This document shows positions 4,416 to 30,006 of a stretch of DNA of 30,934 nt, in pieces. Position 1 is the first letter of the stretch. Every line of letters begins with the position of its first letter. Origin of the DNA: Actinomycetota bacterium (GTDB taxonomy: Bacteria; Actinomycetota; Nitriliruptoria; Euzebyales; Egibacteraceae). The notes beneath the pieces were generated by a model. That model was not told the DNA's origin, did not search any database, and was given only the letters and a program-made list of their open reading frames with translations. The DNA lies in the NCBI GenBank assembly GCA_019347785.1, contig JAHWKQ010000001.1, positions 1,394 through 32,327 on the forward strand. Direction: 5' to 3'. The translations under genes were made by a program, and so were the position numbers.

Positions 4416-4422
4416 CGCGGTC

Positions 4423-4428: not shown

Positions 4429-4465
4429 TCGTCCGAGGCGCCCGGGCGGCGCCGCACCCGGAGTG

Positions 4466-4777: not shown

Positions 4778-5906
<1,129 letters not shown>

Positions 5907-5910
5907 GCCG

Positions 5911-10169: not shown

Positions 10170-11078
10170 TCAGACCTTCACGCGCAGTGCCCGCCGCCGC
10201 AGCGTGACGGTCGCCGGCGTGCGGCCCAGCAGCCGGCCGTCGGCCTCCACCGCCAGGGGGCGCGCAGGCGCCACCGTGACGCGCGGTGACTGCCACTCCG
10301 TGATCTGCGGGTGCGGCAGGTGCTCGCCGCGCAGCAGCGGCTGGGTCAGGGTGAACACCTGGCTGCGCGGGCCGGTGAAGACGAGCACGTTGAGCCGCCC
10401 GTCGTCGGGCAGCGCCCGCGGCGCGACCTTCATGCCGCCGGAGAAGAACTGACCGTTGGCGGCGACGAGCGCCACGACCGGCAGCGTCGCGGCCGTGTGG
10501 GCGACGCGTACCTCGGCCTCCTGGCGGTCCAGCGTCGAGATGGCCGTCCAGGCCGCGAGCAGGTTGCCCACCCGGCCCGTCCACGCGGGCAGCCTGCGGC
10601 GGTGCCGCACGAGCTCCGCGCCCCACCCGACCTGGGCCACGTTGGCGAACAGCCGGCGGACCGGGCGCCCGTCGGGCGCCGCGCAGGCCACCTCACCGAT
10701 GTCGACGGTCATCGTGTGCGGACCGGTCAGGTGGCGGGCGACGACGTCGGCGCCCCGGTCCAGCCCGAACGTGCGCGCGAAGTCGCAGTCGACGCCGGCG
10801 ACGCCCAGCACCGGCAGGTCGCCAGCGCCGGGCGGCGTGTCGCCGCCGTCGCCCAGCAGCCCGTTGACGACGTCGTGGACGGTGGGGTCGCCGCCCACGG
10901 CGACGACGAGCTCGACGCCGTGATCACGGGCCGCCCGGGCCATTCCCACGGCGTCCCCGGGGCGGCGGGCGAGCGCGACGTCGTAGTCCAGCCCGGCCCC
11001 GCGCAGCGCCCGCTCCAGCGCGGGCAGCGTCGCGCGCCCGTGGCGCGGTCCGACGAGCAGCCGTGCGGCGGCGGTCAC
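10170..11078 (-). CDS. Diacylglycerol kinase family (YegS/Rv2252/BmrU-like) protein with degenerate ATP-site motifs
   Basis: VAVGGDPTVHDVVNGL, DFARTFGL, FANVAQVG, ANGQFFSGGM, EADG; GTGA-coupled to the helY stop. Confidence 0.85.
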   Translation of the reverse strand: MTAAARLLVGPRHGRATLPALERALRGAGLDYDVALARRPGDAVGMARAARDHGVELVVAVGGDPTVHDVVNGLLGDGGDTPPGAGDLPVLGVAGVDCDFARTFGLDRGADVVARHLTGPHTMTVDIGEVACAAPDGRPVRRLFANVAQVGWGAELVRHRRRLPAWTGRVGNLLAAWTAISTLDRQEAEVRVAHTAATLPVVALVAANGQFFSGGMKVAPRALPDDGRLNVLVFTGPRSQVFTLTQPLLRGEHLPHPQITEWQSPRVTVAPARPLAVEADGRLLGRTPATVTLRRRALRVKV

Positions 11079-13780
11079 ACGCCGCTGAAGGCGACAACGC
11101 CCCGTACGAGGCGCCGCGCCGCCTGGTGCGCCGCAGGCGAGCGGTGGTCGTCGCGGGTCACGTCGCGCAGCTGGCGCAGCAGGTCGGCGACCTGCTTGGT
11201 GGCGCGGACGAAGTCACCGGCCGTGAGCTCGCTGGCCCCGAGGGCGTCCTGGAGCGGCTGGCCCGAGGCCCAGCGCCAGGTGACGTCGGCGAAGCCGGGG
11301 TCCAGGGGCCGTGTCGGTGACAGCCCGGTGTCCGCCTCCCGCTCGACGACGTCGGCCCACACCGCCTGGGCGGCGTCGACCGCCTCGCGCACCCGCGGCG
11401 TCGGCAGGCGGGGCGGCGCCGGCTCCCGCGTCCGCGTCTCGTGCACGAAGACACTGGCCACCGCTGCGAGGTCGGCCGCGTCGAGCCCGTCGAGGACGCC
11501 GCGGCGCAGCGCCTCGGCCAGGACGAGGTCGGTGTCGGCGTACAGCCCGGCCAGCCGCAGCCCCTCCTCGGTCGGCTGCGGGGCCCGCCGGTCGTCGGTG
11601 AGATAGCCCATGGCGGTGAGCACCTCGACGATGCGGTCGAAGTCGCGCACGAGCGATCCGGTGCGCCGGTGGACGGAGCGCTCCAGGCGCTCGGTGGCCT
11701 CGGCGAGCTCGTCGTGGCGCCGCGCCCACCGGGCGGTCTCCTCCAGCGCGGGGTCGTGGTGCACCGGGTGCTCGCGCACGGCGCGCCGCAGGTGCTGCAG
11801 GCGGGTGGTGGTGGCCGGCTCGGCGGGCGCGTCGGACCCGCCGGCGGGGTCGTCGGGGCGCAGGCGGTGCAGCGCCTCGGCCACGGCCCGGCGGTACCCG
11901 GGCTGGCGCGGGCCGCCCGCGGCGGGCAGCGGTACCCGCCCCACCGACCACGGCGGGCTCGGGAACTCGCGGGGACCGAGCCGGATCAGCCTGCGGTCCT
12001 CGGTGACCGCCTGGGCGAGCGGCGTGCCGGTGCTGCTGCGCGAGCGCCCCACGATCGCCGCCCTGGGCGGGCGCCTGCCGCCCTTGGGCAGCAGCACCAC
12101 GTCCCCCTCGCGCAGGCGGTCGACGCCGTCGAGCACGGCGTCGCGTCGATGTTGACGACGCTCGCGGGCGACGGCCGACTCCAGGCGCGCCAGCTCCGTG
12201 CGCAGCGCCCAGTACTGGGCGAAGTCGCCGTGGTCCGAGCGCAGGTTGGCGGCGTAGCCGTCGAGGCCGCGGCGGTTCTCGGCGATCCGCCGCTGCTGGT
12301 CGACGACGGTCGCATCCGTCTGGAACTGCGCGAACGAGCTGGCCAGCAGCCGCTCCGCCCCGGCACGGCTGTGACGGCGCAGCAGGTTCACGGCCATGTT
12401 GTACGACGGCGCGAAGCTGGAGCGCAGCGGCTCGACGCGCCGGTCGACCAGGGAGGCGACGGTCGGGAAGTCCACGTCGCGCTGATAGAGCACGACGGCG
12501 TGGCCCACCCGGTCCAACCCACGGCGCCCCGCCCTGCCGGTCAGCTGGGTGAACTGCCCGGGGGTCAGCAGCTCGTGGCGCTGGCCGTTCCACTTCTCCA
12601 GCCGCTCGATGACAACCGTGCGGGCCGGCATGTTGATTCCCAGCGCCAGCGTCTCGGTGGCGAAGCAGGCCTTCACCAGGCCGTCGACGAACAGCCGCTC
12701 CACGGTCTCCTTGAACACCGGGACCATGCCCGCGTGGTGGGCGGCGACGCCGCGCTCCAGGGCGGACGCCCACGCCGCGAAGTCCAGCACGTCGAGGTCC
12801 CCGGCGGGCAGCGGGGCGGTCCGCTCCGCGACGACCCCGCGGATGCGCGCACGCTCGGGGGCGGTGGTGAGGGAGACGCCGGCGGCGACGAGCTGGTCCA
12901 CGGCGTCGTCGCAGCCGGCGCGGCTGAACAGGAAGTAGATGGCCGGCAGCCAGTCGCGCCGGGCCAGCTCCTCGACCATCTCGAAGCGGCGCGGCGCGCG
13001 TGGCCGGGGCCCGGGGACCCGTCGCCCGCGGCGGTTGACGCGCGCCGCCGCCCGGCGCTCCAGCATCAGCACCTCCGGGTTGGGCCGACCCCCGCGGGCC
13101 TGGCGCGCCGCCTGGACGTCGCTGCCCTGCCTGCGGCGCCCCGACGGCCCGCCGGCGGCCACGAACGTCGGCAGGACCCTGTCGTTGACCGCGTACGAGT
13201 GCTCCAGCGGGACAGGCCGCCGCTCGGAGATCACCACGTCGCACGACTCCCGGACGCCCCGCAGCCAGCGGCCGAATTCCTCGGCGTTGGACAGGGTGGC
13301 CGACAGGCAGGCGAGGGCCACGCTGGGCGGAAGTTGGACGATCACCTCCTCCCACACCGCGCCGCGTTCCCGGTCGGCCAGGTAGTGCACCTCGTCGAGC
13401 ACGACGGCGTGCAGGCCCACCAGTGCGGGCGAGCCCTCGTAGAGCATGTTGCGCAGCACCTCGGTCGTCATGACCACGACGGGGGCGTCGCCGTTGACGG
13501 CGTTGTCGCCGGTGAGCAGGCCCACGCGCTCCGGGCCGTGGCGCCGGGACAGATCGACGAACTTCTGGTTCGACAGGGCCTTGATGGGCGTCGTGTAGAA
13601 GCACTTGCCCTCGCGGTGCAGCGCCTGCCAGACGGCGTACTCGCCGACGACGGTCTTGCCGGCCCCCGTGGGCGCGGCGACGAGCACCGAGCGGTCGGCG
13701 GCCAGCGCGGCGACGCCCGCCCGCTGGAAGTCGTCGAGGGGAAAGTCGTAGGCGGCGCCGAAGCGCTGCGGCAGGTCCAT
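11075..13780 (-). CDS. helY: Ski2-like DEAD/DEAH RNA helicase HelY
   Basis: APTGAGKT, TTPIKALSNQK, DEVH, LSAT, ATETLALGINMPA, QLTGRAGRRG, DSHCT-like C-terminus; follows tatC. Confidence 0.95.
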   Translation of the reverse strand: MDLPQRFGAAYDFPLDDFQRAGVAALAADRSVLVAAPTGAGKTVVGEYAVWQALHREGKCFYTTPIKALSNQKFVDLSRRHGPERVGLLTGDNAVNGDAPVVVMTTEVLRNMLYEGSPALVGLHAVVLDEVHYLADRERGAVWEEVIVQLPPSVALACLSATLSNAEEFGRWLRGVRESCDVVISERRPVPLEHSYAVNDRVLPTFVAAGGPSGRRRQGSDVQAARQARGGRPNPEVLMLERRAAARVNRRGRRVPGPRPRAPRRFEMVEELARRDWLPAIYFLFSRAGCDDAVDQLVAAGVSLTTAPERARIRGVVAERTAPLPAGDLDVLDFAAWASALERGVAAHHAGMVPVFKETVERLFVDGLVKACFATETLALGINMPARTVVIERLEKWNGQRHELLTPGQFTQLTGRAGRRGLDRVGHAVVLYQRDVDFPTVASLVDRRVEPLRSSFAPSYNMAVNLLRRHSRAGAERLLASSFAQFQTDATVVDQQRRIAENRRGLDGYAANLRSDHGDFAQYWALRTELARLESAVARERRQHRRDAVLDGVDRLREGDVVLLPKGGRRPPRAAIVGRSRSSTGTPLAQAVTEDRRLIRLGPREFPSPPWSVGRVPLPAAGGPRQPGYRRAVAEALHRLRPDDPAGGSDAPAEPATTTRLQHLRRAVREHPVHHDPALEETARWARRHDELAEATERLERSVHRRTGSLVRDFDRIVEVLTAMGYLTDDRRAPQPTEEGLRLAGLYADTDLVLAEALRRGVLDGLDAADLAAVASVFVHETRTREPAPPRLPTPRVREAVDAAQAVWADVVEREADTGLSPTRPLDPGFADVTWRWASGQPLQDALGASELTAGDFVRATKQVADLLRQLRDVTRDDHRSPAAHQAARRLVRGVVAFSGV

Positions 13781-15672: not shown

Positions 15673-16620
15673 TCACGCCGACCGGTCATCGCCGTACAGC
15701 GCGAGCGTCTCCCGCGCGCGGTCGCGCACGAGCGACGACAGGGCGGCGGGCGCCACGACCGTGGCAGCGGCGCCGAGCCGCAGCACCAGGCGCGCGATCC
15801 CCTCCAGCTCACGGGCCCGCAGCGTCACCCGTCGGATGTCGTCACGGCCGTCGACGTGGTCGACGCGGAGCCACTCGGCCAGCCACCAGGCGTCGGGGCG
15901 CAGGTCGAGCACGACCGTGGTGTCATCCGGCCCCGGGCGGTAGGCGGGCGGCCCGGCCGGCGGCCGCGCGCCGTCGGCGACGCGCTCGCCGGTGGGATGC
16001 ACGGTTCGGATGCGGTCCAGGCGGAAGTCCCGCGGCGCCTGGACCCCGCGGCACCACGCCCGCAGGTACCAGGCGCCGCCGGCGCCGGCGACCTCCCACG
16101 GCTCGACGTCTCGCTCGGTGGTCTCGCCCTTTGACGCCGAGCGGTACACCAGGTGCAGCACCCGGCGCTCCTCGACGGCTCGCCACAGCAGCGGCAGGTG
16201 CTCGTCGCCGGGGGCGGACAGGTCGACCGCCACGCCCGGGTGGACCCCGAGGGCGCCCTCGAGCTTGTCCACGGCCCCGGCCAGTGGCTTGGAGCCGGCC
16301 AGGCCGACGCTCAGCAGCGCGCGGCCGGCCAGCAGCAGCGTGACCGCCTCGCGGAGGCTCAGCCGCAACGGCCGCCGGAAGAAGTCGGCCATGCGCACCA
16401 CCACGCGGTCCCCCACGACCGACGCCTCGATGAGGTCACCGCCGCCGTAGCCAGGCAATCCGCAGTAGCCCAGCATGTCCAGGTCGCGCGCCACCTCGGC
16501 GCGGTCGCCACCGAAGCGCCGGGCGACCTCGGCCAGCTCCACGCCGGGATGCTCGAGCAGCCAGGGCACCATCGTCAGCAGGCGCTCCAGGCGCTGCAGG
16601 GTGCGCGTCGGAGGGCTCAC
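15673..16620 (-). CDS. pafC: WYL-domain transcriptional activator PafC
   Basis: QRLERLLTMVPWL, CGLPGYGGGDLI, RPLRLS..EA, WYLRAWC...FRLDRI; RBS GGAGG. Confidence 0.93.
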   Translation of the reverse strand: MSPPTRTLQRLERLLTMVPWLLEHPGVELAEVARRFGGDRAEVARDLDMLGYCGLPGYGGGDLIEASVVGDRVVVRMADFFRRPLRLSLREAVTLLLAGRALLSVGLAGSKPLAGAVDKLEGALGVHPGVAVDLSAPGDEHLPLLWRAVEERRVLHLVYRSASKGETTERDVEPWEVAGAGGAWYLRAWCRGVQAPRDFRLDRIRTVHPTGERVADGARPPAGPPAYRPGPDDTTVVLDLRPDAWWLAEWLRVDHVDGRDDIRRVTLRARELEGIARLVLRLGAAATVVAPAALSSLVRDRARETLALYGDDRSA

Positions 16621-16621
16621 C

Positions 16622-17584
16622 CTAATCCTCCACCGCAGCCTCAGCGTTGGCGAGCGACCGCAACTGCTCGATGACACGCCGGCGCAGCGGGGCGGGGCCG
16701 CGCACGCGCAGCTCGGGGCCGTACTCCAGCGCCCAGCCGACGAAGCGGTCGGGGTCGCCGACCGGCACGGTGTAGCGGGTCCAGCCGCCGGGGACCGGAC
16801 GCCCGTCGCCGTGCGCCCGGCGGGCGACCAGCCAGCCGACGGACGGCGCGGCGTCCACCTCGGCGTCGGACGGCGCGTCGGCAGGCGGCTGCGGCAGGAC
16901 GTCGTCGACGGTGACCCCCTCCGGGGGCGGTTCGAACGCCTCGGACTCGCCGACGGTGGTCACGCGCCCGCGGATCCGGTCGAGCCGGAAGACGCGACGC
17001 CCCCGGCGCTCGTGGTCGCGACCGACCAGGTACCAGCGGCCCCGGCGGTGCACCACCGCATGGGGGTCGACGGTGCGCCTGGCCGTCCGTCCCTCGAGGG
17101 GGGCGTAGTCGAAGCGCACCACGGTTCGTGAGAGCTGCGCCTCCAGGAGGACGGCGCTGACGGGGTGGGACAGGTCCACACCCACGGGCGCGGCCGGGAC
17201 GAGGCGCTCGGCCGCGGGCTCGTCGGCGTCAACCTCCAGTTTGCGCAGGCCGGCCCCCGCCTCGTCGACCAGTCCGGTGACCTGCAGGGCGAGCGCCAGC
17301 GCCGTGAGCTCAGAGCCGCTCAGGGCCACCGACGGCAGGTCGTAGCTGCGGGGGTCGATGCGGTAGCCCTGGGTGTCGTCCCAGCGGCCCAGGGGCGCAG
17401 TGGTCACGGGGACGCCCAGTGCGCGCAGGTCGGCCTTGTCCCGCTCGAAAGTCCGCCGGAAGGCTTCGTGGGTGTCCTGGTCGTAGCCCGCGACGCGGTC
17501 GTGGATCTCGTCGGCTGTCATGGGCCGGCGGGTCTCGCGCAGGGCGATGACGAGGTTGACCAGCCGCTCGAGCCTGTCGATCAT
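16622..17584 (-). CDS. pafB: WYL-domain transcriptional activator PafB
   Basis: RLERLVNLVIAL, FRRTFERDKADLRALGVP, WYLVGRD...FRLDRI. Confidence 0.93.
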   Translation of the reverse strand: MIDRLERLVNLVIALRETRRPMTADEIHDRVAGYDQDTHEAFRRTFERDKADLRALGVPVTTAPLGRWDDTQGYRIDPRSYDLPSVALSGSELTALALALQVTGLVDEAGAGLRKLEVDADEPAAERLVPAAPVGVDLSHPVSAVLLEAQLSRTVVRFDYAPLEGRTARRTVDPHAVVHRRGRWYLVGRDHERRGRRVFRLDRIRGRVTTVGESEAFEPPPEGVTVDDVLPQPPADAPSDAEVDAAPSVGWLVARRAHGDGRPVPGGWTRYTVPVGDPDRFVGWALEYGPELRVRGPAPLRRRVIEQLRSLANAEAAVED

Positions 17585-20658: not shown

Positions 20659-22014
20659 TCACATGCTGGCGATGAGCTTGTCGACCCGCTCGTCGGTGGC
20701 GCGGAACGGGTCCTTGCACAGCACCGTGCGCTGTGCCTGGTCGTTGAGCTTCAGGTGGACCCAGTCGACGGTGTAGTCACGGCGCCGGCGCTTGGCCTGG
20801 CGGATGAACTCGCCCCGCAGGCGCGCCCGGGTCGTCTGTGGGGGCAGGTCGCGCGCCCGCTGGATGCCCTGGTCGTCGACGACGCGGTCGACGCGGTCGC
20901 GGCGCTGCAGCAGGTTGTACAGCCCGCGGCTGCGGTTCACGTCGTGGTACTGCAGGTCGAGCATCGCCACGCGCGGGTGTGACAGCGGCAGGTCGTGGCG
21001 ACGACGGTAGTCGTCGACGAGGTGGTGCTTGGCGACCCAGTCGCACTCGCGCCCCAGCTTGAGCGGGTCGTCCTCGAGCGTCTGCAGCACCCGCGCCCAC
21101 TCGGCCAGCACGACGTCGGTCTCCGGGTCGGTGCCCTCGTGCTCCACGAACTGCGACACGCGCTCCAGGTAGTGCCGCTGGATCTCCAGTGCGCTCAGCT
21201 CCCGGCCCCCGATCAGCTTCACCCGCCGGGTGCACGACATGTCGTGGCTGATTTCGCGGATGGCTCGGATCGAGTTCTCCAGCGTCAGCTCGCGCATGAC
21301 GGTGCCCGCCTCGATCATGCGCAGCACTAGGTCCGTCGTCGCCAGCTTCAGCCAGACGGCGTACTCGCTCATGTTCGAGTCGCCGACGATGACGTGCAGT
21401 CGCCGGTACCGCTCGGCGTCCGCGTGCGGCTCGTCACGGCTGTTGATGATCGGGCGGCTGCGGGTCGTGGCCGACGACAGCCCCTCCCAGATGTGCTCGG
21501 CCCGCTGAGAGATGGAGTAGACGGCCCCGCGCGGGGTCTGCAGCATCTTGCCGGCGCCGGCGTAGATCTGGCGTGTGACGAGGAACGGGATGAGCGTGTC
21601 GGCCAGCTTCTGGAACTCCCCGAAGCGGGCGACGAGATAGTTCTCATGGCTGCCGTAGGAGTTGCCCGCCGAGTCGGTGTTGTTCTTGAACAGGTGGATC
21701 TGCCCGGAGATGCCCTCCTCGTGGAGGCGCTGCTCGGCCTGCTCCACCAGGTTCTCCAGGATGCGCTCCCCCGCCTTGTCGTGGGTGACGACGTCACGCA
21801 CCGAGTCGCACTCGGGAGTGGCGTACTCCGGGTGGGAGCCGACATCGAGGTACAGGCGGGCGCCGTTCTCCAGGAACACGTTGGACGAGCGGCCCCAACT
21901 GACGACCCGGCGGAACAGGTAGCGCGCGACCTCGTCGGGCGACAGCCGCCGCTGGCCCCGGAAGGTGCACGTCACGCCGTACTCGACCTCGAGGCCGAAG
22001 ATCCGACGCTGCAT
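20659..22014 (-). CDS. pafA: Pup-protein ligase
   Basis: [65 protein letters not shown]. Confidence 0.97.
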
Positions 22015-22086
22015 GTCACGGAGCCTTTCCTCGGTCGGGGCTCTCCCGCGCGCACCCGCCGCGGGAGCACCGGGCGGAGCCGCGTC

Positions 22087-22092
22087 AGTGTA
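22087..22092 (-). promoter_or_regulatory. -10 element TACACT for pafA
   Basis: In the prcA-pafA intergenic gap; RBS GAGGAAAGG downstream. Confidence 0.55.
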
Positions 22093-22133
22093 CGGCGGAC
22101 GGTCGCGGCGGCCGCGCCCCCTCCCCGGCGGCG

Positions 22134-22811
22134 TCAGGTCCCCGACTCCAGGGCCTCGGTGACCGCCTCGTCGCTCAGGCGACGGAACTTGCGCCGGCCC
22201 CGGCCCCGGTCGAGCACGGCGACCTCGAGCCGTCCGGCCAGCTCGTCGCCGTCGCTGAGCGCGGTGCGGGCCCACCCCAGGGCCGTTGCCAGCTGGCTGC
22301 CCGGCTGGTGCAGCTCCGACAGGCGTGCGTTGACGCGCTCGGCGTCGCCGCCGATGGCGACGAAGCCCTCCTCGTCGGTGATCGAGCCGTCGTAGAGGAT
22401 GTGGAACAGGTCCACGTCGGAGTCGCCGACCTCGGCGACGAGCAGCTCGACCTCGTAGGGCTTGGACCCCTCGGTGAAGGCGGTCCCCAGGGCCGTGGCG
22501 TACGCGTTGGCCAGCGAGCGTCCGGTCACGTCCTCGCGCGCGTACTGGTAGCCGCGCACGTCGGCGACCCTGATGCCGGCCACCCGCAGCTGCTCGAACT
22601 CGTTGTACTTGCCGACCGCGGCGAAGGCGATCCGGTCGTAGATCTCGCTGACCTTGCGCAGGCTCGACGAGGGGTTCTCGGCGACGAACAGCACCCCGGC
22701 GTCGTAGGCCACCGCGATGACGGACCGGCCACGGGCGATGCCCTTGCGGGCGTAGTCGGCCCGGTCCTTCATGAGCTGCTCGGGTGACACGTAGTAGGGC
22801 ATCGCCACCAC
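22134..22811 (-). CDS. prcA: 20S proteasome alpha subunit
   Basis: [41 protein letters not shown]; RBS GAGGAGG. Confidence 0.97.
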
Positions 22812-22877
22812 GGTGGGCGCCTCCTCTCTGTACGCGACCCGCGCCCACGCTCGCGCGCCCGGCGTCAGCGCGCCGGG

Positions 22878-23675
22878 TCAGCGCTGGCGCTGCTCGATGA
22901 CGCGCTCGACGCGGGCCGCCACGGCCTCGTCTTCCATCTCCCGGTAGCCGCCGGCGTCGATGACCGTCACCAGCGGGTAGATGCCCCGCACCAGGTCGGG
23001 CCCGCCGGTCGCGGAGTCCTCGTCCGCGGCGTCCCACAGGGCCTCGATCGCCATGTCCAGCGCGGTCTCGCGCTCGGCGCCCGGGGTGTAGCGGGCCTTC
23101 AGCGAGCCGCGGGCGTCACGCCCGCCGGAACCGGTGGACGCGAAGCGTCGCTCCTCGTAGCGCCCCCCGGCCGCGTCGTACTCGTAGATGCGCGAGCGGC
23201 CGGTGTGCGGGTCGTACCCGGCGAACAGCGGCACGACCACGAAGCCCTGCAGGGCCATGCCCAGGTTGCCCATCACCATGCGCGCCAGCATGTTGGCCTT
23301 GCCGTCCAGTGACAGGGGGCCGCCCTCGATCTTCTCGTAGTGCTCCAACTCGGTGGCGAAGACCTTCGCCAGCTCCATGGCCGGGCCGGCCGCGCCGGAG
23401 ATCGCCACGGCCGACCAGGCGTCGGCCTCGAAGACCTTGCGCATGTCCCGCTTGGAGATGACGTTGCCGGCGGTCGCCCGCCGGTCGCCGGCCATGACCA
23501 CACCCCCGTCGTAGGTCAGTGCCAGCACGGTGGTGCCCTCGACGTGATCGACGACCTCGTCGACCCGGGCGACGCCGGGGGCGGGGCGGGGCTGCGCCGC
23601 CGGACGGTCTCGTCGCAGGAGGGCCGAGAAGCTGGGGCCGTCGAGGTCGAACGCGCTCGGGCGCTCGAGCCTCAC
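22878..23675 (-). CDS. prcB: 20S proteasome beta subunit (propeptide + Thr1)
   Basis: EG/TTVLAL autocleavage site, [20 protein letters not shown]. Confidence 0.97.
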
Positions 23676-23857
23676 TGGCCACCCTTCTGGACATAGTTCT
23701 TGACGAACTCCTCGGCGTTCTCCTCGAGGACCTCGTCGATCTCGTCGAGCAGGTCGTCGACGTCGGACGTGTCGACCTGGTCGGCGGCGGACGTCTCGCC
23801 CGGCTCCTCCTCGGTCTGCCGCGGCCGCTGTCGGCGGACCCTCTCACCCTCGCTCAT
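23672..23857 (-). CDS. pup: Prokaryotic ubiquitin-like protein Pup (GGQ end, needs Dop deamidation)
   Basis: [28 protein letters not shown]. Confidence 0.98.
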   Translation of the reverse strand: MSEGERVRRQRPRQTEEEPGETSAADQVDTSDVDDLLDEIDEVLEENAEEFVKNYVQKGGQ

Positions 23858-23913
23858 GGCAGGCTCCTGACGCCGCACCCGGCCCGGGACGGTGGCCAGG
23901 GACGCGTGCCGGA

Positions 23914-23919
23914 AGTGTA
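23914..23919 (-). promoter_or_regulatory. -10 element TACACT for pup-prcB-prcA
   Basis: In the dop-pup gap; RBS AGGAG before the pup ATG. Confidence 0.55.
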
Positions 23920-23966
23920 GCGAGCGCCCGGGCGCGGCTGTCGAGGGCCCACAGGCAGGGCCGGCG

Positions 23967-25454
23967 TCAGCCCTGCAGGGCCTCCAGCAGCGGCGCGGCC
24001 GAGTCGCAGCGGTCGATGAGCTCCTCCACCTGCACGCGGCCACCGCGGCCGGGGTCCATCATCGGCACGCGCTGGAGCGTCTCCTTGCCGACGTCGAAGA
24101 TGATCGAGTCCCAGCCGGCCGCAGCGACCTGGTCGCGGTACTTGGCCAGGCACCGGCCGCGGAAGTAGGCCCGGGTGTCCTCGGGGGGCTCGGTGACCGC
24201 CCGTCGGACCTCCGACTCGGCCACGACGCGCTCGACCCGCCCGGACGCGGCCAGGCGGTTGTACAGGCCCTTGTCGCGACGCACGTCGTGGTACTGCAGG
24301 TCGACGAGCTTGAGCTTGTCGTGGTCCCAGGAGAGATCGTCGCGCTCGACGTAGCGTCGCAGCAGCCGGTACTTCGTCACCCAGTCGACGACGCCGTCCA
24401 GGCTCATCGGGTCGTCCTCGAGGGCCACGAGGATTCGTTCCCACACGGCCAGGACGTCCTTGGTGACCTCGTCGACAGCCACCTCCTTGCAGTAGCGCTG
24501 GGCGTGCTCCAAGTAGTGCCACTGCAACTCGACGGGCGTGACCCGGCGGCCGTCGCGCAGGAGCACGGGCCGCGAGCAGGTCAGGTCGTGGGAGACCTCG
24601 TGCAGCGCCGAAACGGGGGCGTCCACCGCGGGCGGGTCGGGCAGGAATCCGTCCTCGACCATCGACAGCAGCAGCCCCGTCGACCCCAGCTTGAGCAGGG
24701 TGCAGACCTCACTCATGTTCGCGTCGCCGACGATGACGTGTAGGCGGCGGAAGCGCTCGGGGTCGGCGTGCGGCTCGTCGCGCGTGTTGACGATCGGCCG
24801 CTTCAGCGTCGTCTCCAGGCCCACCTCGACCTCGACGAAGTCGGCGCGCTGCGACAACTGGTAGGGCACGTCGGGCAGGCCGTGCTCGTTGCCCAGGCGC
24901 CCGGCTCCGACCATGACCTGTCGTGTGACGAAGAACGGCGTGATCTGGCGGACGATCTGACCGAACGGCACCGCCCGGTCCACGATGTAGTTCTCGTGCA
25001 TGCCGTACGCGGCGCCCTTGCCGTCGGTGTTGTTCTTCGTGATGACGACCCGGCCGGGCCCACCCGGCAGCATCCGCCCGGCGCGCTCGGCCGCGACCTC
25101 CAGGATCCGCTCGCCGGCCTTGTCCCACACGACCGCGTCGCGGGGATTGGACACCTCGGGCGAGGAGAACTCGGGGTGGGCGTGGTCGACGTAGAAGCGG
25201 GCCCCGTTGGTCAGGATCGCGTTGGCCAGTCCCACGTCCTCCTCGGGCACCGGCTCGTGGGCGCTGGGCTGGGTGAACCCGCGGGCGTCGCGCAGCGGGT
25301 TCTCCTCCTCGTAGTCCCACCGCGCGCGGCGATGCCCGTCGGCGGCGTAGGCGTTGACGACCAGCGACGACGCGAGCACGGGGTTGAAGTCGGGACGCCC
25401 CACCACGGCGATCCCGTACTCGGTCTCGGTCCCCTGATACCTGACGAGCGTCAT
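23967..25454 (-). CDS. dop: Pup deamidase/depupylase
   Basis: [60 protein letters not shown]. Confidence 0.97.
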   Translation of the reverse strand: MTLVRYQGTETEYGIAVVGRPDFNPVLASSLVVNAYAADGHRRARWDYEEENPLRDARGFTQPSAHEPVPEEDVGLANAILTNGARFYVDHAHPEFSSPEVSNPRDAVVWDKAGERILEVAAERAGRMLPGGPGRVVITKNNTDGKGAAYGMHENYIVDRAVPFGQIVRQITPFFVTRQVMVGAGRLGNEHGLPDVPYQLSQRADFVEVEVGLETTLKRPIVNTRDEPHADPERFRRLHVIVGDANMSEVCTLLKLGSTGLLLSMVEDGFLPDPPAVDAPVSALHEVSHDLTCSRPVLLRDGRRVTPVELQWHYLEHAQRYCKEVAVDEVTKDVLAVWERILVALEDDPMSLDGVVDWVTKYRLLRRYVERDDLSWDHDKLKLVDLQYHDVRRDKGLYNRLAASGRVERVVAESEVRRAVTEPPEDTRAYFRGRCLAKYRDQVAAAGWDSIIFDVGKETLQRVPMMDPGRGGRVQVEELIDRCDSAAPLLEALQG

Positions 25455-25500: not shown

Positions 25501-27222
25501 TCACAGGTACTGGCCGGTGTTGACGTTCTCGATGGACTTGCCGGGCGCCTGCCCGTCGCCGACCAGGGTCCGGACGAACACGATGCGCTCCCCCTTCTTG
25601 CCGGAGATGCGCGCCCAGTCGTCGGGGTTGGTGGTGTTCGGCAGGTCCTCGTTCTCGCGGAACTCGTCGCGGATGGCCTGGAACAGGTCCTCCGGGCTGA
25701 GGCCGCGCTGGCCCTCGTCGAGATAGCGCTTGATCGCCATCTTCTTGCCGCGGGCGATGACGTTCTCGATCATCGCGCCGGAGTTGAAGTCCTTGAAGTA
25801 CAGGACCTCCTTGTCGCCGTTGGCGTAGGTGACCTCCAGGAAGCGGTTCTCCTCCCGCGTGGCGTACATCCGCCGGCACGTCTGGTCGATCAGCCAGCGC
25901 ACCGCCGGCTCCTCCCCGTCGTGCCGCTTGACCAGGTCAGGGTGCAGCGGGAGGCCGGCGTGCAGATAGACGCCGAAGATCTCCCGGGCGGCGTCCTCGT
26001 CGGGCCGCTCGATCTTGATCTTCACGTCCAGGCGGCCGGGCCGCAGGATCGCCGGGTCGATCATGTCCTCCCGGTTGGACGCCCCGATGACGATGACGTC
26101 CTTGAGCGACTCGACGCCGTCGATCTCGGACAGCAGTTGCGGGACGATCGTGTTCTCCACGTCGCTGGAGATCCCCGATCCGCGCGTGCGGAAGATCGAG
26201 TCCATCTCGTCGAAGAAGACGATGACGGGAAAGCCCTCCTCGACCTTCTCCCGGGCGCGCTGGAAGATCAGTCGGATCTGCCGCTCGGTCTCCCCCACGT
26301 ACTTGTTGAGCAGCTCCGGGCCCTTGATGTTCAGGAAGTAGCTGCGCGCGTCGGAGCGCCCGGCGCGCTCGGCGACCCGGTGGGCCAGGGAGTTGGCGAC
26401 GGCCTTGGCGATCATCGTCTTGCCGCAGCCCGGCGGGCCGTACAGAAGAATCCCCTTCGGCGCGCGCAGCTCGTGCTCACGGAACAGGTCGGCGTGCAGG
26501 AAGGGCAGCTCGACGGCGTCCTGGATGGCCTCGATCTGGGCGCCCAGGCCCCCGATGTCCTCATAGGAGATGTCGGGCACCTCCTCCAGGATGAGCTCCT
26601 CCACCTCGGGACGGGGCAGGCGCTCGAGGGCGTGGTTGCTGCGGGTGTCGACGAGCAGCGTGTCACCCGCGCGCAGCGGCACCGACAGCAGCGGCTCGGC
26701 GACCCGCACCACCTGCTCGTCGTCGGTGTGGCCGATCACCAGGACGCGGTTGCCGTCCAGGCGCTCCTTGAACGTCATGGCCTCGCCGACGACGTCGAAG
26801 CGGGCGCCCTCGATGATGTTCAGCGCCTCGTTCAGGACGACCTCCTGGCCGCGCACCAGCGAACCGGCGTCCACCTCGGGGCCGAGGGCGACCCGCAGCT
26901 TGCGGCCCTGGGAGAAGACCTCGACGGTCTGGTCGTCGTGGGGCTCGAGGAACACGCCGAACGTCGACGGTGGCGCCGTCAGCTTCTCGACCTGCTCTTT
27001 GAGGGCGACGATCTGCTCGCGCGCCTCGCGCAGGGTCTCGGCCAGCTTGCTGTTCTGCGCCTGGGCGGTGGCCAGCCGGCCCTTGGTCTCCAGGACCCGC
27101 TCCTCCAGGGCCCGTGTGCGCGACGGTGACTCGTCAAGGCGTCGCCGCAGCAGGGCCGCCTCCTCCTCGAGGAACTTGACCTGCGTCCGCAGCTCGAGCA
27201 GTTCCGCCTCGTGGTCTGCCAT
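25501..27222 (-). CDS. arc: Proteasomal AAA ATPase ARC/Mpa
   Basis: N-terminal coiled coil, [13 protein letters not shown] pore loop, FFDEMD, RPGRLD, C-terminal GQYL. Confidence 0.97.
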
Positions 27223-27336: not shown

Positions 27337-28152
27337 CTACCGCGTCGGCGCGGCGAGGCGTCGCGCCGTCGTGAGGAACGCGGTGTGGGCGACCATGCGG
27401 TGGTCGGGGCGCACGGACTGGCCCTCCACGTGCCAGCCGCGCACCAGCGTTTCGGTCGTGTGCCGCAGCCCCCAGCGCCCGTCGGCCACCAGCGCCTCGT
27501 GCAGGCGCACGACCTGGGTCACGGTTGGCGTGTAGGCCACGAGGATGCCCCCGGGCCGCAGGGCGTCGGCGCCGGACTTGACGACCGCGGCCGGGTCGAG
27601 CAGGTCCAGCACCAGGCGGTCGCACGACTCGCCGTCCACCCCGTCGGCGACGTCGCCGCGGCGTAGCCGCCAGTTGGGCGGGCGCCCGCCGCAGCGGGCC
27701 TCGACGTTGCGCTCGGCCACGTCGGCGTGCTCGTCGCGGATCTCGAAGCTGGTCACCGCTCCCGTCGGCCCGACCGCCCGCAGCAGGGCGCACGTCAGCG
27801 CCCCCGAGCCGGCACCCGCCTCGACCACCGTGGCCCCGGGCCCCAGGTCAGCCAGCGCGACGATCATGGCCTGGTCCTTGGGATAGACGACCTGCGCCCC
27901 CCGGGGGGCCTTGACCGTCCAGTCGGCCGCCGTGGGCCGCAGGGCCAGCAGCGCCGACCTGCCGCTGCTCCGCACCGTGACGCCCTCGGGGCAACCGATC
28001 AGCGCATCGTGCTCCAGGATCCCGGCGTGGTAGTGGAAGCGGCCACCGGCCTGCAGCGTCACCATGTAGCGGCGGTCCTTGCGGTCGACGAGCAGCACCG
28101 TGTCACCCGGGCTGAACGGGTCGGGATGGCCCGGGCCGCGGGGTGCGCTCAT
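27337..28152 (-). CDS. trmI: tRNA (adenine-58 N1)-methyltransferase
   Basis: RGAQVVYPKD, VEAGAGSGALT, LDLLDP, W...GQSVRPDHRMVAHTAFL; ATGA-coupled to the upstream gene; classic position upstream of arc. Confidence 0.95.
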   Translation of the reverse strand: MSAPRGPGHPDPFSPGDTVLLVDRKDRRYMVTLQAGGRFHYHAGILEHDALIGCPEGVTVRSSGRSALLALRPTAADWTVKAPRGAQVVYPKDQAMIVALADLGPGATVVEAGAGSGALTCALLRAVGPTGAVTSFEIRDEHADVAERNVEARCGGRPPNWRLRRGDVADGVDGESCDRLVLDLLDPAAVVKSGADALRPGGILVAYTPTVTQVVRLHEALVADGRWGLRHTTETLVRGWHVEGQSVRPDHRMVAHTAFLTTARRLAAPTR

Positions 28153-29318
28153 CGGTGCGCGGCCGCCCGCGGCCGCCCCCCGCCCCCGCGCAGGAGCCGG
28201 CCGCGGGTGCGGCAGAAGGCGCACACCGCCTCACCGGTGGCGTCCGGACCCCGGGGCACGCTGGTGGGCATCCCGCAGCCGGCGCAGGGCGCCACCTCGC
28301 CGGGGTCGGCGTCGTCGCGGGCGAAGTGGCGGGGCTGCACGCGGTCGAGGAAGCCGAACAGGAACTGGGTCTTGGTACCCGGCGACCGGCGCTCCAGCTC
28401 GTTCAGGGCGTCCTTGTAGCGCAGCACGGTGTTGCCCTCGACGAGGGGGCACTCCTCGACGACGTAGTCCAGCCCCCTGATCACGCAGTAGGCGGCCATC
28501 TCCCGCTCACCGAGCCGGTACAGCGGCTTGACCTTGCGGGCCAGCTGCCCCGGCGCGGCCGGCAGCACGGGCGACTGGCGGGCCATGAACGGCGTCTGCC
28601 AGCGCAGCACGTTGCCCAGCAGCGTCGCGGCCTCGTCGTCCAGGTTGTGCCCGGTCGCCATCACGTCGTAGCCGTGCTCGAGGGCCACCCGGTTGAACAC
28701 GTAGCGCTTGGACAGCCCGCAGACGCCGCAGGAGGAGCGGGTGCGGTCGGCGGTGGCCCGGGGGATGTCGAAGCCGTGCTCGTCGGCCAGGTTCACCGTG
28801 CGCAGGCGCGCGCCCCGGGCGGCGGCGAAGTCGGCGACGACGCGGCCGGACCGGTCGGAGTACTTCCCGATGCCCAGCCCCAGGTAGAGGCCGTCGGCGC
28901 GGTAGCCCATGTCCAGCAGCACGTCCCACAGCGCCAGGGAGTCCTTGCCGCCGCTGACGGCCACCAGGACGTGGTCGTCGTAGGACAGCATCCCGTGGCG
29001 GTCGATCGCGGCGCGCACCTGCGACCGCACGTGGTCGACGAAGTGCCCGGCGCAGTAGGCCGCCCGGTGCCGAGCCACCTCGATGACCGACGGCGCGGGG
29101 CACGCGTGGCACCGCGCGGGCCCAGCGCCACCGGAGATCACCGGGCGGAGCTCGACCTCGGCGTCGTCGGGCAGCAGGTGGTCCTTGGTGACGAGCTGCC
29201 CGGCGTGGATGACCAGCACCGTCTCCGGGTTCACGTCGAAGCGCTCGAGCACCTGCGACACCCGCAGCGGGCCGTCGACCCGCTCGGTCCGTCTGGTGTT
29301 GCGGAAGTGGACCTGCAT
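28149..29318 (-). CDS. ttuA: Fusion of a ThiS/MoaD/TtuB ubiquitin-like sulfur carrier (aa 1-64, ...VISGG) and a TtuA/Ncs6-type tRNA 2-thiouridine synthase
   Basis: beta-grasp domain ending RPVISGG, then CHAC...CAGH, PP-loop SGGKDS, CGVC, TGHNLDDE, ECP, C-terminal CAGC...CAFC; no stop between the domains. Confidence 0.9.
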   Translation of the reverse strand: MQVHFRNTRRTERVDGPLRVSQVLERFDVNPETVLVIHAGQLVTKDHLLPDDAEVELRPVISGGAGPARCHACPAPSVIEVARHRAAYCAGHFVDHVRSQVRAAIDRHGMLSYDDHVLVAVSGGKDSLALWDVLLDMGYRADGLYLGLGIGKYSDRSGRVVADFAAARGARLRTVNLADEHGFDIPRATADRTRSSCGVCGLSKRYVFNRVALEHGYDVMATGHNLDDEAATLLGNVLRWQTPFMARQSPVLPAAPGQLARKVKPLYRLGEREMAAYCVIRGLDYVVEECPLVEGNTVLRYKDALNELERRSPGTKTQFLFGFLDRVQPRHFARDDADPGEVAPCAGCGMPTSVPRGPDATGEAVCAFCRTRGRLLRGGGGRPRAAAHR

Positions 29319-29331: not shown

Positions 29332-30006
29332 CTAGCGACCCGTCCCGAGCGTGTCGGCGCCGAACAGCTCCAGACACGGCTCCAGGCCGTCCACCGTCAC
29401 GGCCGGCCGCTCCGAGGCCTCCCAGTCGTCGCGGGTCAGCACGAGGCGCCGCTCGATGGCGCGCTGCCCTCGTCGGACGCGCACGTTGTGGCCCTCGGGG
29501 TGGTAGCCCAGCCGCCGCGAGACGGCCAGGGACGCCGGGTTGTCGGTGAAGGCGCCGCTGCGGGCCTCCAGCGCCCCCAGGCCCGCGAAGGCCAGGTGCA
29601 GCACGGCGGCGCGCATCTCGGTGCCGATCCCGTGGCCCTGGTGAGACCGGCCCAGCCACGAGCCGGTGCCGACGGAGCGGGTGACCGCGAACTCGGTGGC
29701 CGTGATGCCCTGCATGCCGACGTGGCCGCTGTCCGCCAGCACCGCGAGGTCCAGGGTCCACTCCCCCGGCGTCCAGTGGGCGCGGGAGCGCCAGTGATGC
29801 CGCAGCATCCCCCGCTCCAGCTCCGGCGAGGGCTTGTCGGTCCACGCGGACAGGAAGGGCATGGTCTCCGGGGGGTGGACCCCGGCCGCCGCCAGCTCGG
29901 CGAGCGCGGCCAGGTCGTCGTCCGCAGGCAGGCGTAGCTCCAGTCGCGCGGTGCGCACCCGCAGACCGAACAGCGGCCACAGCCGCCTCAGCGCCTCGCC
30001 CACCAC
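29332..30006 (-). CDS. RimJ/RimL-type GNAT, Rv0802c-like (succinyl-CoA transferase family)
   Basis: WPLFGLRVRT.RLEL, GVHPPETMPF...W, GSWLG..HQGHGIGTEMRAAVL.LAF, DNPASLAVSRRLGY. Confidence 0.88.
   Translation of the reverse strand: MVGEALRRLWPLFGLRVRTARLELRLPADDDLAALAELAAAGVHPPETMPFLSAWTDKPSPELERGMLRHHWRSRAHWTPGEWTLDLAVLADSGHVGMQGITATEFAVTRSVGTGSWLGRSHQGHGIGTEMRAAVLHLAFAGLGALEARSGAFTDNPASLAVSRRLGYHPEGHNVRVRRGQRAIERRLVLTRDDWEASERPAVTVDGLEPCLELFGADTLGTGR

What the first reader, a model, noticed from the sequence alone, without database searches (positions are those of the whole stretch)
28149..29318. Ubiquitin-like sulfur carrier genetically fused through its di-Gly to a TtuA tRNA thiolase, beside the Pup-proteasome operon
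Seen: a 64-aa ThiS/TtuB-like domain ends RPVISGG (GG codons 29127-29132) and continues in frame via AGPAR into a complete TtuA (Zn fingers, PP-loop, CxxC and ECP Fe-S cysteines). No stop or restart codon lies at the junction. Established: in Thermus thermophilus TtuB is a separate protein whose free C-terminal Gly is thiocarboxylated and delivered to TtuA, and TtuB is also conjugated to TtuA. Inference: the buried GG cannot carry sulfur unless a protease releases it, as in a linear ubiquitin fusion. Otherwise the domain is a tethered scaffold or degradation tag. No E1 (MoeB/TtuC) or JAMM protease is in this window. The gene is co-oriented with trmI and arc, so two unrelated ubiquitin-like systems sit side by side.
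Basis: partly seen in the sequence, partly recalled or inferred. Interest (0 to 1): 0.72.

Follow-up and report, generated by a model that had tools for sequence, protein, structure and literature searches.

The report
TtuB sulfur carrier fused to TtuA
One gene joins a small ubiquitin-like sulfur carrier (TtuB) through its Gly-Gly end to the tRNA-thiolating enzyme it serves (TtuA); the join is real and common in Actinomycetota, and the carrier most likely has to be cut free after Gly-Gly before it can work, a new arrangement of a known pathway.

Summary
ORF 28149-29318 (-) encodes 389 aa: a 64-aa TtuB-like domain ending RPVISGG, a 5-residue linker (AGPAR), then a complete TtuA, 46-47% identical to Thermus TtuA.

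It is not an assembly artefact. 79 of 151 actinobacterial ttuA loci are fused. The rest have ttuB just upstream, ending GG-stop (19) or GG plus a 1-29-residue tail (53).

Fused and split states change at least 4-8 times on the TtuA tree. The TtuB domain is as constrained in fused genes as in split ones.

The residue after GG is Ala or Ser in 68 of 80 distinct tails and linkers.

The AlphaFold2 model is confident everywhere inside the protein except residues 62-66, the junction.

Most likely the protein is a precursor cut after Gly64, as shown for MoaD-MoaE fusions. A Mec-type JAMM next to cysO is the leading candidate and was found in 40 of 41 relatives.

Neither the JAMM nor the E1 was found in this 84%-complete MAG. 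Cleavage itself is untested.

The gene sits in a conserved ttuB-ttuA-trmI unit (146 of 151 loci). Its closeness to the Pup genes comes through trmI-arc and gives no evidence of a functional link.

This scan has reported the same fusion at least 14 times on other genomes.

Verdict: new variant of a known kind, moderate interest.

The parts
28149..29318 (-). ttuB-ttuA fused gene, 389 aa plus TGA stop
   Evidence: Single open frame. Domain hits. AF2 mean pLDDT 92.8, pTM 0.88.
29127..29318 (-). TtuB (ThiS-family) domain, residues 1-64, ending RPVISGG; GG codons 29127-29132
   Evidence: Pfam ThiS at 11-64, reaching the end of the profile. Best PDB sequence hit is Thermus TtuB 5ztb_E, with GG aligned to the chain end. 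The AF2 secondary structure (four strands and a helix, E2-5, E10-13, H20-26, E34-38, E41-43, E54-59) is consistent with a beta-grasp fold at pLDDT about 88-96. The domain is 64-65 aa in all 79 fused genes.
29112..29126 (-). Linker AGPAR (residues 65-69) between Gly64 and the first Zn-finger Cys; predicted cleavage site lies between Gly64 and Ala65
   Evidence: The only internal AF2 segment with pLDDT below 50 is residues 62-66. It corresponds codon for codon to the 5-codon spacer TAG-E-P-ATG-R of the split relative L110. It holds no in-frame start codon. The residue after GG is Ala in 53 and Ser in 15 of 80 distinct tails or linkers.
28152..29111 (-). TtuA domain, residues 70-389. N-terminal Zn finger C70/C73/C89/H92 (29043-29111); PP-loop SGGKDS (28938-28955); Fe-S cysteines C197, C200 (28719-28730) and C290 (28449-28451); C-terminal Zn finger C345-C369 (28212-28286)
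   Evidence: Invariant columns in A1. Foldseek: 5ztb_B, 5gha and 5b4e (Thermus TtuA) at 46-47% identity, TM 0.90 by target, rmsd 1.5-1.7 A.
27337..28152 (-). trmI (tRNA m1A58 methyltransferase); its ATG (28150-28152) overlaps the ttuBA stop TGA (28149-28151) as ATGA
   Evidence: Pfam GCD14 and TrmI-like_N. The overlap is read from the sequence. trmI lies directly downstream of ttuA in 146 of 151 loci.
25501..27222 (-). arc/mpa proteasomal AAA ATPase (context only)
   Evidence: Pfam AAA and Prot_ATP_ID_OB domains. Found beside trmI in 87 of 151 loci.
29332..30006 (-). GNAT acetyltransferase upstream, 13 nt from the ttuBA start (context only; not conserved)
   Evidence: Pfam Acetyltransf_3. Present in only 6 of 151 loci.

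Best explanation
The gene encodes a TtuB-TtuA precursor polyprotein of the tRNA U54 2-thiolation pathway.

Shown:
- An orthologue of the Thermus sulfur carrier TtuB is joined in frame, through its Gly-Gly, to a complete Thermus-type TtuA.
- The gene is translationally coupled to trmI.

Inferred:
- A Gly-Gly-specific peptidase cuts between Gly64 and Ala65. The most probable candidate is the Mec-type JAMM metalloprotease encoded next to cysO elsewhere in the genome. This frees a 64-aa TtuB with a C-terminal Gly, and a TtuA that starts about four residues before its first zinc finger.
- The single MoeZ/TtuC-like E1 (ThiF family, about 390-aa open frame) then adenylates and thiocarboxylates TtuB.
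- TtuB-COSH docks on TtuA in trans and gives its sulfur to the [4Fe-4S] cluster for thiolation of U54. This acts together with m1A58 made by TrmI.
- The fusion arose by loss of the ttuB stop and the ttuA start in a tightly packed ttuB-ttuA pair. It is tolerated because residues after GG are removed anyway.
For: (1) Identity of the two halves. TtuA is 46-47% identical to Thermus TtuA, TM 0.90, and all catalytic and metal-ligand residues are invariant. The best PDB match of the N-domain is Thermus TtuB, with GG aligned to its C-terminus.

(2) Junction states across 151 actinobacterial loci: 79 fused, 53 GG plus a 1-29-residue tail, and only 19 exact GG-stop. Most TtuBs of the phylum therefore need trimming whether fused or not.

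(3) The TtuA tree needs 8 fused/split changes, at least 4 of them forced by well-supported branches. Split forms are nested inside the fused Nitriliruptoria clade. In L110 the spacer TAG-E-P-ATG-R occupies the same 5 codons as AGPAR.

(4) Constraint is not relaxed. TtuB-to-TtuA divergence is 1.10 in fused genes and 1.14 in split ones, and RPVISGG is at least 90% conserved in fused genes.

(5) The residue after GG is Ala or Ser in 68 of 80 distinct tails and linkers, against a background of 10.6% Ala.

(6) AF2 is confident on both domains. The only internal segment with pLDDT below 50 is residues 62-66.

(7) 71 of 79 fused genes, this one included, have no in-frame start codon in the linker. 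No second ttuA or ttuB copy was found in the genome.

(8) A Prok-JAB JAMM is present in 40 of 41 relatives and an E1 in 33 of 41. The JAMM lies next to cysO, and CysO also carries variable tails after GG, for example ANAGR in this genome.

(9) Experimental precedent. MoaX must be cut after Gly82 to be active (PMC4326299). DRJAMM and HvJAMM1 cut linear MoaD-MoaE or SAMP fusions (PMC8832034).
Against: No cleavage has been observed; everything rests on comparative inference.

Neither a JAMM above the cut-off nor an E1 was found in this MAG. It is 84% complete, and its cysO starts at a contig edge.

The JAMM is not specific to TtuB. It also occurs in relatives without ttuA, and it is never within 2.5-4 kb of ttuBA in any of 151 loci.

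One fused genome (G091, 94% complete) and one tailed genome (G060, 93% complete) gave no JAMM hit at E <= 1e-10.

Some TtuA enzymes (Thermotoga, Pyrococcus) work with inorganic sulfide, so a carrier is not chemically indispensable.

Sequences in the counts are related, so the tallies overstate independence.
Confidence: 0.68

Rival explanations
1. The fusion is cleaved after Gly-Gly, but not by the Mec-type JAMM. Another cellular peptidase or an autocatalytic step would do it. The protease for mycobacterial MoaX is likewise still unidentified.
For: JAMM is never adjacent to ttuBA. JAMM was not found at E <= 1e-10 in the fused genome G091 or the tailed genome G060. The MoaX paper states that its protease is unidentified (PMC4326299).
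Against: JAMM is present in 40 of 41 relatives and, by hand count, in about 106 of 113 ttuBA genomes of the phylum sample. JAMMs are the only enzymes shown to cut linear Ubl sulfur-carrier fusions (PMC8832034). No other protease is conserved near the locus.
Confidence: 0.15
2. The fusion is never cleaved. The TtuB domain is a tethered structural or regulatory module. TtuA takes sulfur from sulfide or from another free carrier (CysO, ThiS or MoaD thiocarboxylate).
For: Sulfide-dependent TtuA enzymes exist (5mkp and 5mkq are among the fold hits). The genome has three free or tailed ThiS-family proteins. Ubl redundancy is reported in Thermococcus (PMC11323500 abstract). AF2 gives pTM 0.88 for the whole chain.
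Against: RPVISGG and the whole domain are as conserved in fused genes as in split ones. Repeated reversion to separate genes argues that the two forms are functionally equivalent. Linkers as short as 3 residues leave little slack; no distance to the active site could be measured here. The TtuA half is closest to the TtuB-dependent Thermus enzyme at 46-47% identity, against 38-39% for the sulfide-using ones.
Confidence: 0.12
3. The fused Ubl domain links TtuA to the neighbouring Pup-proteasome system, for example as a degradation tag or through Ubl cross-talk.
For: The gene is co-oriented with arc, dop and proteasome genes in the window. arc lies beside trmI in 87 of 151 loci.
Against: The conserved unit is ttuB-ttuA-trmI (146 of 151 loci). 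arc is adjacent in split and fused states alike. The trmI-arc neighbourhood is recalled to occur also in actinobacteria without ttuA, such as M. tuberculosis Rv2118c-Rv2115c; this is my own knowledge and was not tested here. No feature of the domain resembles Pup.
Confidence: 0.03
4. Assembly or sequencing artefact, or a pseudogene: a lost stop codon in this MAG only.
For: The window comes from a fragmented MAG of 280 contigs.
Against: The same open junction appears in 120 close homologues and in 79 loci from independent assemblies, including single-contig genomes. There are no frameshifts, and all catalytic residues are intact.
Confidence: 0.01

Closest known systems
Thermus thermophilus TtuA/TtuB (with the E1 TtuC, TtuD and IscS), the m5s2U54 tRNA thiolation system; PDB 5GHA, 5ZTB, 5B4E
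   Same: The TtuA half is 46-47% identical, TM 0.90, with the same Zn fingers, PP-loop and three Fe-S cysteines. The N-domain is the TtuB orthologue, with ISGG aligned to TtuB's C-terminus. ttuB lies directly upstream of ttuA. There is a functional tie to TrmI: m1A58 is a positive determinant for 2-thiolation (PMC6313347).
   Different: In Thermus, TtuB is a separate protein ending in a free GG. Here it is one polypeptide with a 5-residue linker and no internal start codon. The host is an uncultured Nitriliruptoria lineage, not a known thermophile. TrmFO was not found, so the substrate may be U54 rather than m5U54.
Fused molybdopterin synthases MoaD-MoaE: M. tuberculosis MoaX and D. radiodurans DR2607 with DRJAMM; Haloferax SAMP1-MoaE cut by HvJAMM1
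   Same: A ThiS/MoaD-family sulfur carrier is fused through its GG to the enzyme that uses its thiocarboxylate. Cleavage after GG is required for MoaX activity (PMC4326299), and JAMM enzymes perform it for DR2607 (PMC8832034). The residue after GG is small: Ser83 in MoaX, Ala65 here.
   Different: The partner enzyme and pathway differ: a tRNA thiolase rather than MPT synthase. No experiment exists for any TtuB-TtuA fusion.
Mec-CysO-CysM cysteine pathway of actinobacteria and other tailed carriers (for example QbsE trimmed by the JAMM QbsD; recalled from my own knowledge)
   Same: A JAMM hydrolyses what follows the GG of a ThiS-family carrier. In the window's class, mec sits next to cysO, and CysO often carries a tail after GG.
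   Different: Mec is known for removing cysteine from the CysO-Cys adduct. Action on a 325-residue C-terminal protein is only inferred.
Linear ubiquitin precursors of eukaryotes (polyubiquitin, Ub-ribosomal protein fusions)
   Same: A beta-grasp modifier is made as a head-to-tail fusion and released by cleavage after GG.
   Different: The protease classes differ, the carrier here is a sulfur carrier, and the fusion partner is its own client enzyme.

Membership tests
TtuA (tRNA U54 2-sulfurtransferase, PP-loop / [4Fe-4S] type) | PP-loop ATP-binding motif SGGxDS | tested here: met
   SGGKDS at residues 122-127. S122-D126 are invariant in 113 sequences. Pfam PF01171, E 2.3e-10.
TtuA (tRNA U54 2-sulfurtransferase, PP-loop / [4Fe-4S] type) | Three cysteines that hold the [4Fe-4S] cluster (CxxC plus a distal Cys) | tested here: met
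   C197, C200 and C290 are invariant.
TtuA (tRNA U54 2-sulfurtransferase, PP-loop / [4Fe-4S] type) | N- and C-terminal zinc fingers | tested here: met
   C70, C73, C89 (with H92) and C345, C348, C366, C369 are conserved. Pfam TtuA_LIM_N at 69-94, below its gathering score (23.5 against 27).
TtuA (tRNA U54 2-sulfurtransferase, PP-loop / [4Fe-4S] type) | Fold and sequence like solved TtuA | tested here: met
   5ztb_B, 5gha and 5b4e at 46-47% identity, TM 0.90 by target, rmsd 1.5-1.7 A over 308 columns.
TtuA (tRNA U54 2-sulfurtransferase, PP-loop / [4Fe-4S] type) | Score over NCBIfam's equivalog cut-off (NF049949, Pyrococcus-type model) | tested here: not met
   252.8 bits against a cut-off of 450. 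The model is built on the archaeal type, and the protein is closer to the Thermus enzyme.
TtuA (tRNA U54 2-sulfurtransferase, PP-loop / [4Fe-4S] type) | 2-thiolation of U54 or m5U54 in tRNA | not testable with these tools
   Needs LC-MS of tRNA nucleosides. Only the conserved coupling to trmI supports a T-loop target.
TtuB / ThiS-family ubiquitin-like sulfur carrier | Small beta-grasp domain recognised by the ThiS profile | tested here: inconclusive
   Pfam ThiS E 0.006, 17.5 bits, below the 22.5 cut-off for this protein. PF02597 is recorded for many of its close homologues. The AF2 secondary structure is consistent with a beta-grasp at pLDDT about 90, but the domain's fold was not compared on its own. 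The best PDB sequence hit is TtuB, E 6e-4.
TtuB / ThiS-family ubiquitin-like sulfur carrier | Gly-Gly at the very C-terminus, free for adenylation and thiocarboxylation | tested here: not met
   GG is at residues 63-64 of 389 and is followed in frame by AGPAR and TtuA. Only 19 of 151 loci in the phylum end exactly at GG.
TtuB / ThiS-family ubiquitin-like sulfur carrier | Encoded next to ttuA | tested here: met
   A TtuB-like ORF or domain precedes ttuA in all 151 loci examined.
TtuB / ThiS-family ubiquitin-like sulfur carrier | An E1-like activating enzyme (TtuC/MoeZ) in the genome | tested here: inconclusive
   No ThiF hit over the cut-off in this 84%-complete MAG. Present at about 280 bits in 33 of 41 relatives.
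Linear Ubl-enzyme precursors matured by JAMM (MoaD-MoaE / MoaX type) | Carrier fused through GG to the enzyme that uses its thiocarboxylate | tested here: met
Linear Ubl-enzyme precursors matured by JAMM (MoaD-MoaE / MoaX type) | Post-translational cleavage after GG, required for activity | not testable with these tools
   Indirect support only: junction states interchange, constraint is not relaxed, and the junction is predicted disordered.
Linear Ubl-enzyme precursors matured by JAMM (MoaD-MoaE / MoaX type) | JAMM/MPN+ metalloprotease in the same genome | tested here: inconclusive
   In the own genome there is only a RadC-like weak hit. cysO begins at the edge of contig C148, where mec lies in relatives. 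A JAMM with the HxH...S..D motif was found in 40 of 41 relatives.

The most novel reading that the evidence does not exclude
The fusion is not simply a precursor. The Gly-Gly stays buried, or is released only under regulation. Uncleaved TtuB-TtuA would then be a 'born-conjugated' form that mimics the TtuB-TtuA conjugate seen in Thermus. tRNA T-loop thiolation would be switched by a deconjugating JAMM, or would run on sulfide with the Ubl domain acting as a cis regulator. That would make it a ubiquitin-like sulfur carrier working without a free C-terminus.
Probability: 0.1. Interest if true: 0.72.

Novelty: new variant of a known kind. Interest (0 to 1): 0.45.

Why it matters
Ubiquitin-like sulfur carriers work through a free C-terminal glycine. 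Here, and in most actinobacterial ttuB genes sampled (132 of 151 loci), that glycine is masked by a tail or by the client enzyme itself. This points to a routine ubiquitin-style maturation step in bacterial sulfur trafficking that has only been demonstrated for MoaD-MoaE.

The natural series of exact-GG, tailed and fused junctions gives a ready-made substrate panel for finding the protease, including the still unidentified one for mycobacterial MoaX.

It also shows that the 'thermophile-specific' U54 thiolation genes, coupled to trmI, are widespread in lineages not known to be thermophilic.

My full-text searches found no paper describing a TtuB-TtuA fusion. Databases already annotate the two domains, and this scan has met the fusion many times. 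The step beyond current knowledge is therefore modest.

Tried and rejected
- Complex prediction (TtuB domain 1-64 against TtuA 67-389, both cut from alignment A1) was sent four times. The machine could not be reached, so there is no result.
- I looked for JAMM or E1 genes next to ttuBA. None was found within 2.5-4 kb in 151 loci, so gene neighbourhood cannot name the protease.
- I asked whether CysO tails resemble the TtuB linker of the same genome. In this genus both have five residues starting with Ala and ending with Arg (AGPAR against ANAGR and ARARR). Across relatives the tails are unrelated, so I do not use this as evidence.
- The weak JAMM hit in the own genome (L004) is a RadC-like protein, not Mec.
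- The representative-library hits that looked like distant fusions (P0165, P0142, P0129, P0190) are frameshift-ridden metagenome calls and were not used.
- The apparent TtuB-TtuA-TrmI triple fusion in L126 has an out-of-frame-looking TtuA C-terminus. It is probably a sequencing frameshift.
The distance from Gly64 to the active site, and how the two domains sit on each other, could not be measured.
- The JAMM-versus-ttuBA cross-tabulation was counted by hand and is confounded by kinship. It is given only as context.
Full report
**Observation**

The minus-strand ORF 28149-29318 is open for 389 codons. Residues 1-64 end in RPVISGG, with the GG codons at 29127-29132. Five residues (AGPAR) follow, and then the first zinc-finger cysteine of a full TtuA.

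Pfam finds ThiS at residues 11-64, running to the last position of the profile, but at E 0.006, below the gathering score. It also finds TtuA_LIM_N at 69-94 and the PP-loop at 116-289. NCBIfam's TtuA model covers residues 69-371 at 252.8 bits, below the 450-bit cut-off of that Pyrococcus-type model.

The best sequence match of residues 1-66 in the PDB is Thermus thermophilus TtuB (5ztb_E, E 6e-4). TtuB's C-terminal ISGG aligns with residues 61-64.

An AlphaFold2 model built on a 113-sequence alignment has mean pLDDT 92.8 and pTM 0.88. Its TtuA part superposes on Thermus TtuA (5ztb, 5gha, 5b4e) at 46-47% identity, TM 0.90 and rmsd 1.5-1.7 A. The sulfide-using Thermotoga and Pyrococcus enzymes match at 38-39%.

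The PP-loop, the three Fe-S cysteines (C197, C200, C290) and the zinc-finger cysteines C70, C73, C89, C345 and C348 are invariant in the alignment. C366 and C369 are at least 90% conserved.

**Not an artefact**

All 120 closest database homologues (65-90% identity) come from Egibacteraceae, Euzebyales or Nitriliruptorales MAGs of many projects. All are about 380-420 aa long. Every one of the 80 whose junction could be located by the Zn-finger pattern has VISGG followed in frame by a short linker and CxxC.

Whole-genome searches find the uninterrupted fusion in most relatives, including single-contig genomes.

**Comparative anatomy of the junction**

I collected 151 ttuA loci of Actinomycetota (137 non-identical). 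A TtuB-like ORF or domain lies immediately upstream in every one.

| Junction state | Loci | Notes |
|---|---|---|
| Fused in frame | 79 | linkers of 3-15 residues |
| GG plus a tail, then stop | 53 | tails of 1-29 residues, such as A, AA, SHG, STP, ADEV |
| Stop exactly after GG | 19 | |

Most TtuBs of this phylum are thus made with something after the di-Gly, and the fusion is the extreme of a continuum.

A maximum-likelihood tree of the TtuA domain needs 8 fused/split changes. At least 4 are forced by well-supported branches, against a mean of 46 in label shuffles.

The window's class (Nitriliruptoria, 50 rows) is fused in 46. The 4 split forms are nested inside it:
- In L110 the junction reads ...VISGG-TAG-E-P-ATG(M)-R-CHAC. 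The same five codons form the AGPAR linker here.
- In L031-L033, ttuB ends GG-AA or GG-SHG and overlaps the ttuA start in another frame.

Other fused clades occur in unrelated families, some named Acidimicrobiia or Actinomycetes in record titles.

Such easy switching in both directions is what one expects if the fused and split products end up the same.

**Constraint**

The ratio of TtuB-domain to TtuA-domain divergence is 1.10 among fused genes and 1.14 among split genes. The same columns are conserved in both sets, and RPVISGG is at least 90% conserved in the fused set.

The residue after GG is Ala in 53 and Ser in 15 of 80 distinct tails and linkers. Background frequencies are 10.6% Ala and 4.3% Ser. 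The sequences are related, so this is a tendency and not a statistic.

The only internal stretch of the AF2 model with pLDDT below 50 is residues 62-66 (SGGAG), exactly the proposed scissile region.

In 71 of 79 fused genes, this one included, no ATG, GTG or TTG lies in frame in the linker, so TtuA cannot be made on its own. No second ttuA or ttuB was found in the genome.

**The machinery**

The whole MAG (2.1 Mb, 280 contigs, 84% complete) also gives no ThiF hit above the cut-off. It gives only a RadC-like weak JAB hit.

Relatives do have both. A ThiF-family E1 at about 280 bits, in an open frame of about 390 aa, is present in 33 of 41. A 150-aa Prok-JAB protein with the HxH...SxxD motif is present in 40 of 41.

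The JAMM lies directly upstream of a CysO-like carrier in the mec-cysO(-cysM) arrangement. This is seen in published relatives (L025-L029, L176-L194, L195-L214). It is also seen in the unpublished same-genus genome G001 (L030).

In the window's genome the cysO homologue starts 24 nt from the edge of contig C148, so mec would fall in the assembly gap. The placing of mec in this genus rests on unpublished G001. The general arrangement does not.

CysO itself drifts between GG-stop and GG plus a tail: ANAGR here, and ARARR, HR, C, G, AF, ALPR, SARR and longer tails elsewhere. This independently indicates a tail-trimming activity in these organisms.

In the phylum sample, a JAMM at E <= 1e-10 was found in about 106 of 113 genomes with ttuBA and in about half of the others. 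This is a hand count, and it is confounded by kinship.

The JAMM is not specific. It also occurs without ttuA, and it is never within 2.5-4 kb of ttuBA.

**Precedent**

- Cleavage of the M. tuberculosis MoaD-MoaE fusion MoaX between Gly82 and Ser83 is required for activity. Both glycines matter, and the protease is unidentified (PMC4326299).
- Deinococcus DRJAMM cuts its MoaD-MoaE fusion to leave a C-terminal Gly (PMC8832034).
- Haloferax HvJAMM1 cuts linear SAMP fusions (cited in PMC8832034).
- Full-text searches found no paper describing a TtuB-TtuA fusion. Makarova and Koonin noted ThiS genes next to PP-loop ATPases in archaea and MoaD-MoaE fusions, but not this one (PMC2948915).

**Context**

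The ttuBA stop overlaps the trmI start as ATGA at 28149-28152. trmI follows ttuA in 146 of 151 loci and arc in 87. The upstream GNAT is not conserved (6 of 151).

In Thermus, m1A58 made by TrmI is a positive determinant for 2-thiolation of U54, and the two bases pair in the T-loop (PMC6313347). The conserved functional unit is therefore ttuB-ttuA-trmI. Closeness to the Pup-proteasome genes comes through the trmI-arc neighbourhood and is equally present for split genes. I see no evidence of cross-talk between the two ubiquitin-like systems.

**Most likely mechanism**

- Shown: the architecture, the orthology of both halves, the operon, the distribution and the constraint.
- Inferred: cleavage between Gly64 and Ala65, probably by the Mec-type JAMM; activation of the freed TtuB by the single MoeZ/TtuC-like E1; docking in trans on TtuA; and sulfur transfer by way of the [4Fe-4S] cluster.
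- I put about 0.68 on the precursor model with a JAMM as the leading candidate, and a further 0.15 on cleavage by a different protease, so roughly 0.83 on cleavage by any protease.
- An uncleaved scaffold or sulfide-driven enzyme gets about 0.12.
- A Pup-related role gets about 0.03, and an artefact about 0.01.

**Relation to earlier notes of this scan**

Look-ups made after I had recorded my own reading show that the same fusion has been reported at least 14 times on other genomes, with the same interpretation. My results agree with them and were obtained independently here. They are not independent biological evidence.

**Verdict**

This is a real, conserved and recurrent gene fusion, and a new variant of a known kind (Ubl sulfur-carrier precursors such as MoaD-MoaE). 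It is of moderate interest. The decisive experiment, showing cleavage after Gly64 and naming the protease, is simple and remains to be done.

**Unpublished genomes**

G001 (L010, L021, L030), G019 (L011) and G124 (L084) contributed rows to the tree and the junction table. G041, G085, G155, G347 and G365 appear only in tallies. No conclusion depends on them except the placing of mec in this genus (G001).

Noticed in passing
L008 (G000:C128), ORF 691-1743 (-), 350 aa: A second linear Ubl fusion in the same genome. A ThiS/MoaD-family domain (Pfam ThiS E 5.5e-10, residues 5-81, ending LLPPVSGG) continues in frame into a multi-pass membrane protein of the CTP_transf_1 (CdsA-like cytidylyltransferase) family. 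I know of no described function for this architecture.
   Followed up: partly
L005 (G000:C148:24-254, +): The CysO-like carrier of the own genome ends ...LPAVAGG-ANAGR, five residues after GG. It starts at the contig edge, where relatives have the mec JAMM gene. CysO tails after GG are variable across the class.
   Followed up: partly
window 28149-28152: The ttuBA stop (TGA) and the trmI start (ATG) overlap as ATGA, which indicates translational coupling. The ORF lister's longer GTG start for trmI at 28224 is probably not the real one.
   Followed up: partly
own genome and 40 relatives: TrmFO (TIGR00137) was not found in 40 of 41 genomes. The TrmA/RumA family (PF05958) gives only weak partial hits in 23 of 41, and none in the window's genus. 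The TtuA substrate may therefore be unmethylated U54, giving s2U54 rather than m5s2U54. The hosts are not known thermophiles, although m5s2U54 is described as thermophile-specific (PMC6313347).
   Followed up: partly
L110 (SLAO01000186.1, Nitriliruptorales MAG): Inside the otherwise fused clade, one genome has ...VISGG-TAG-GAA-CCG-ATG-CGC-TGT. That is a stop right after GG and a ttuA start three codons later, in the same frame and with the same spacing as the fused AGPAR linker. It looks like a snapshot of the fusion-fission step.
   Followed up: yes
L126 (CAWCLK010000010.1), 4001-6217: An apparent 739-aa TtuB-TtuA-TrmI triple fusion. The TtuA C-terminus looks out of frame, so this is probably a sequencing frameshift in a long-read MAG.
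   Followed up: no
window 20659-23037 (-) and 23854-24522 (-): The frame holding PafA (Pup_ligase at residues 345-763) is open for 344 further residues upstream with no Pfam hit, and it overlaps the proteasome-subunit ORF 22878-23675. Only one proteasome subunit was recognised. The ORFs 23116-23847 and 23854-24522 gave no Pfam hit, and pup was not looked for. The gene calls of the Pup-proteasome block need proper start-codon work.
   Followed up: no
window 15673-17584 (-): Two WYL/WCX-domain regulators lie side by side; the one at 15673-16677 also has the PafC HTH domain (PafB/PafC-like pair). They are followed by a DEAD/DSHCT helicase at 11075-13780. This is the usual content of an actinobacterial pafABC region.
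   Followed up: no
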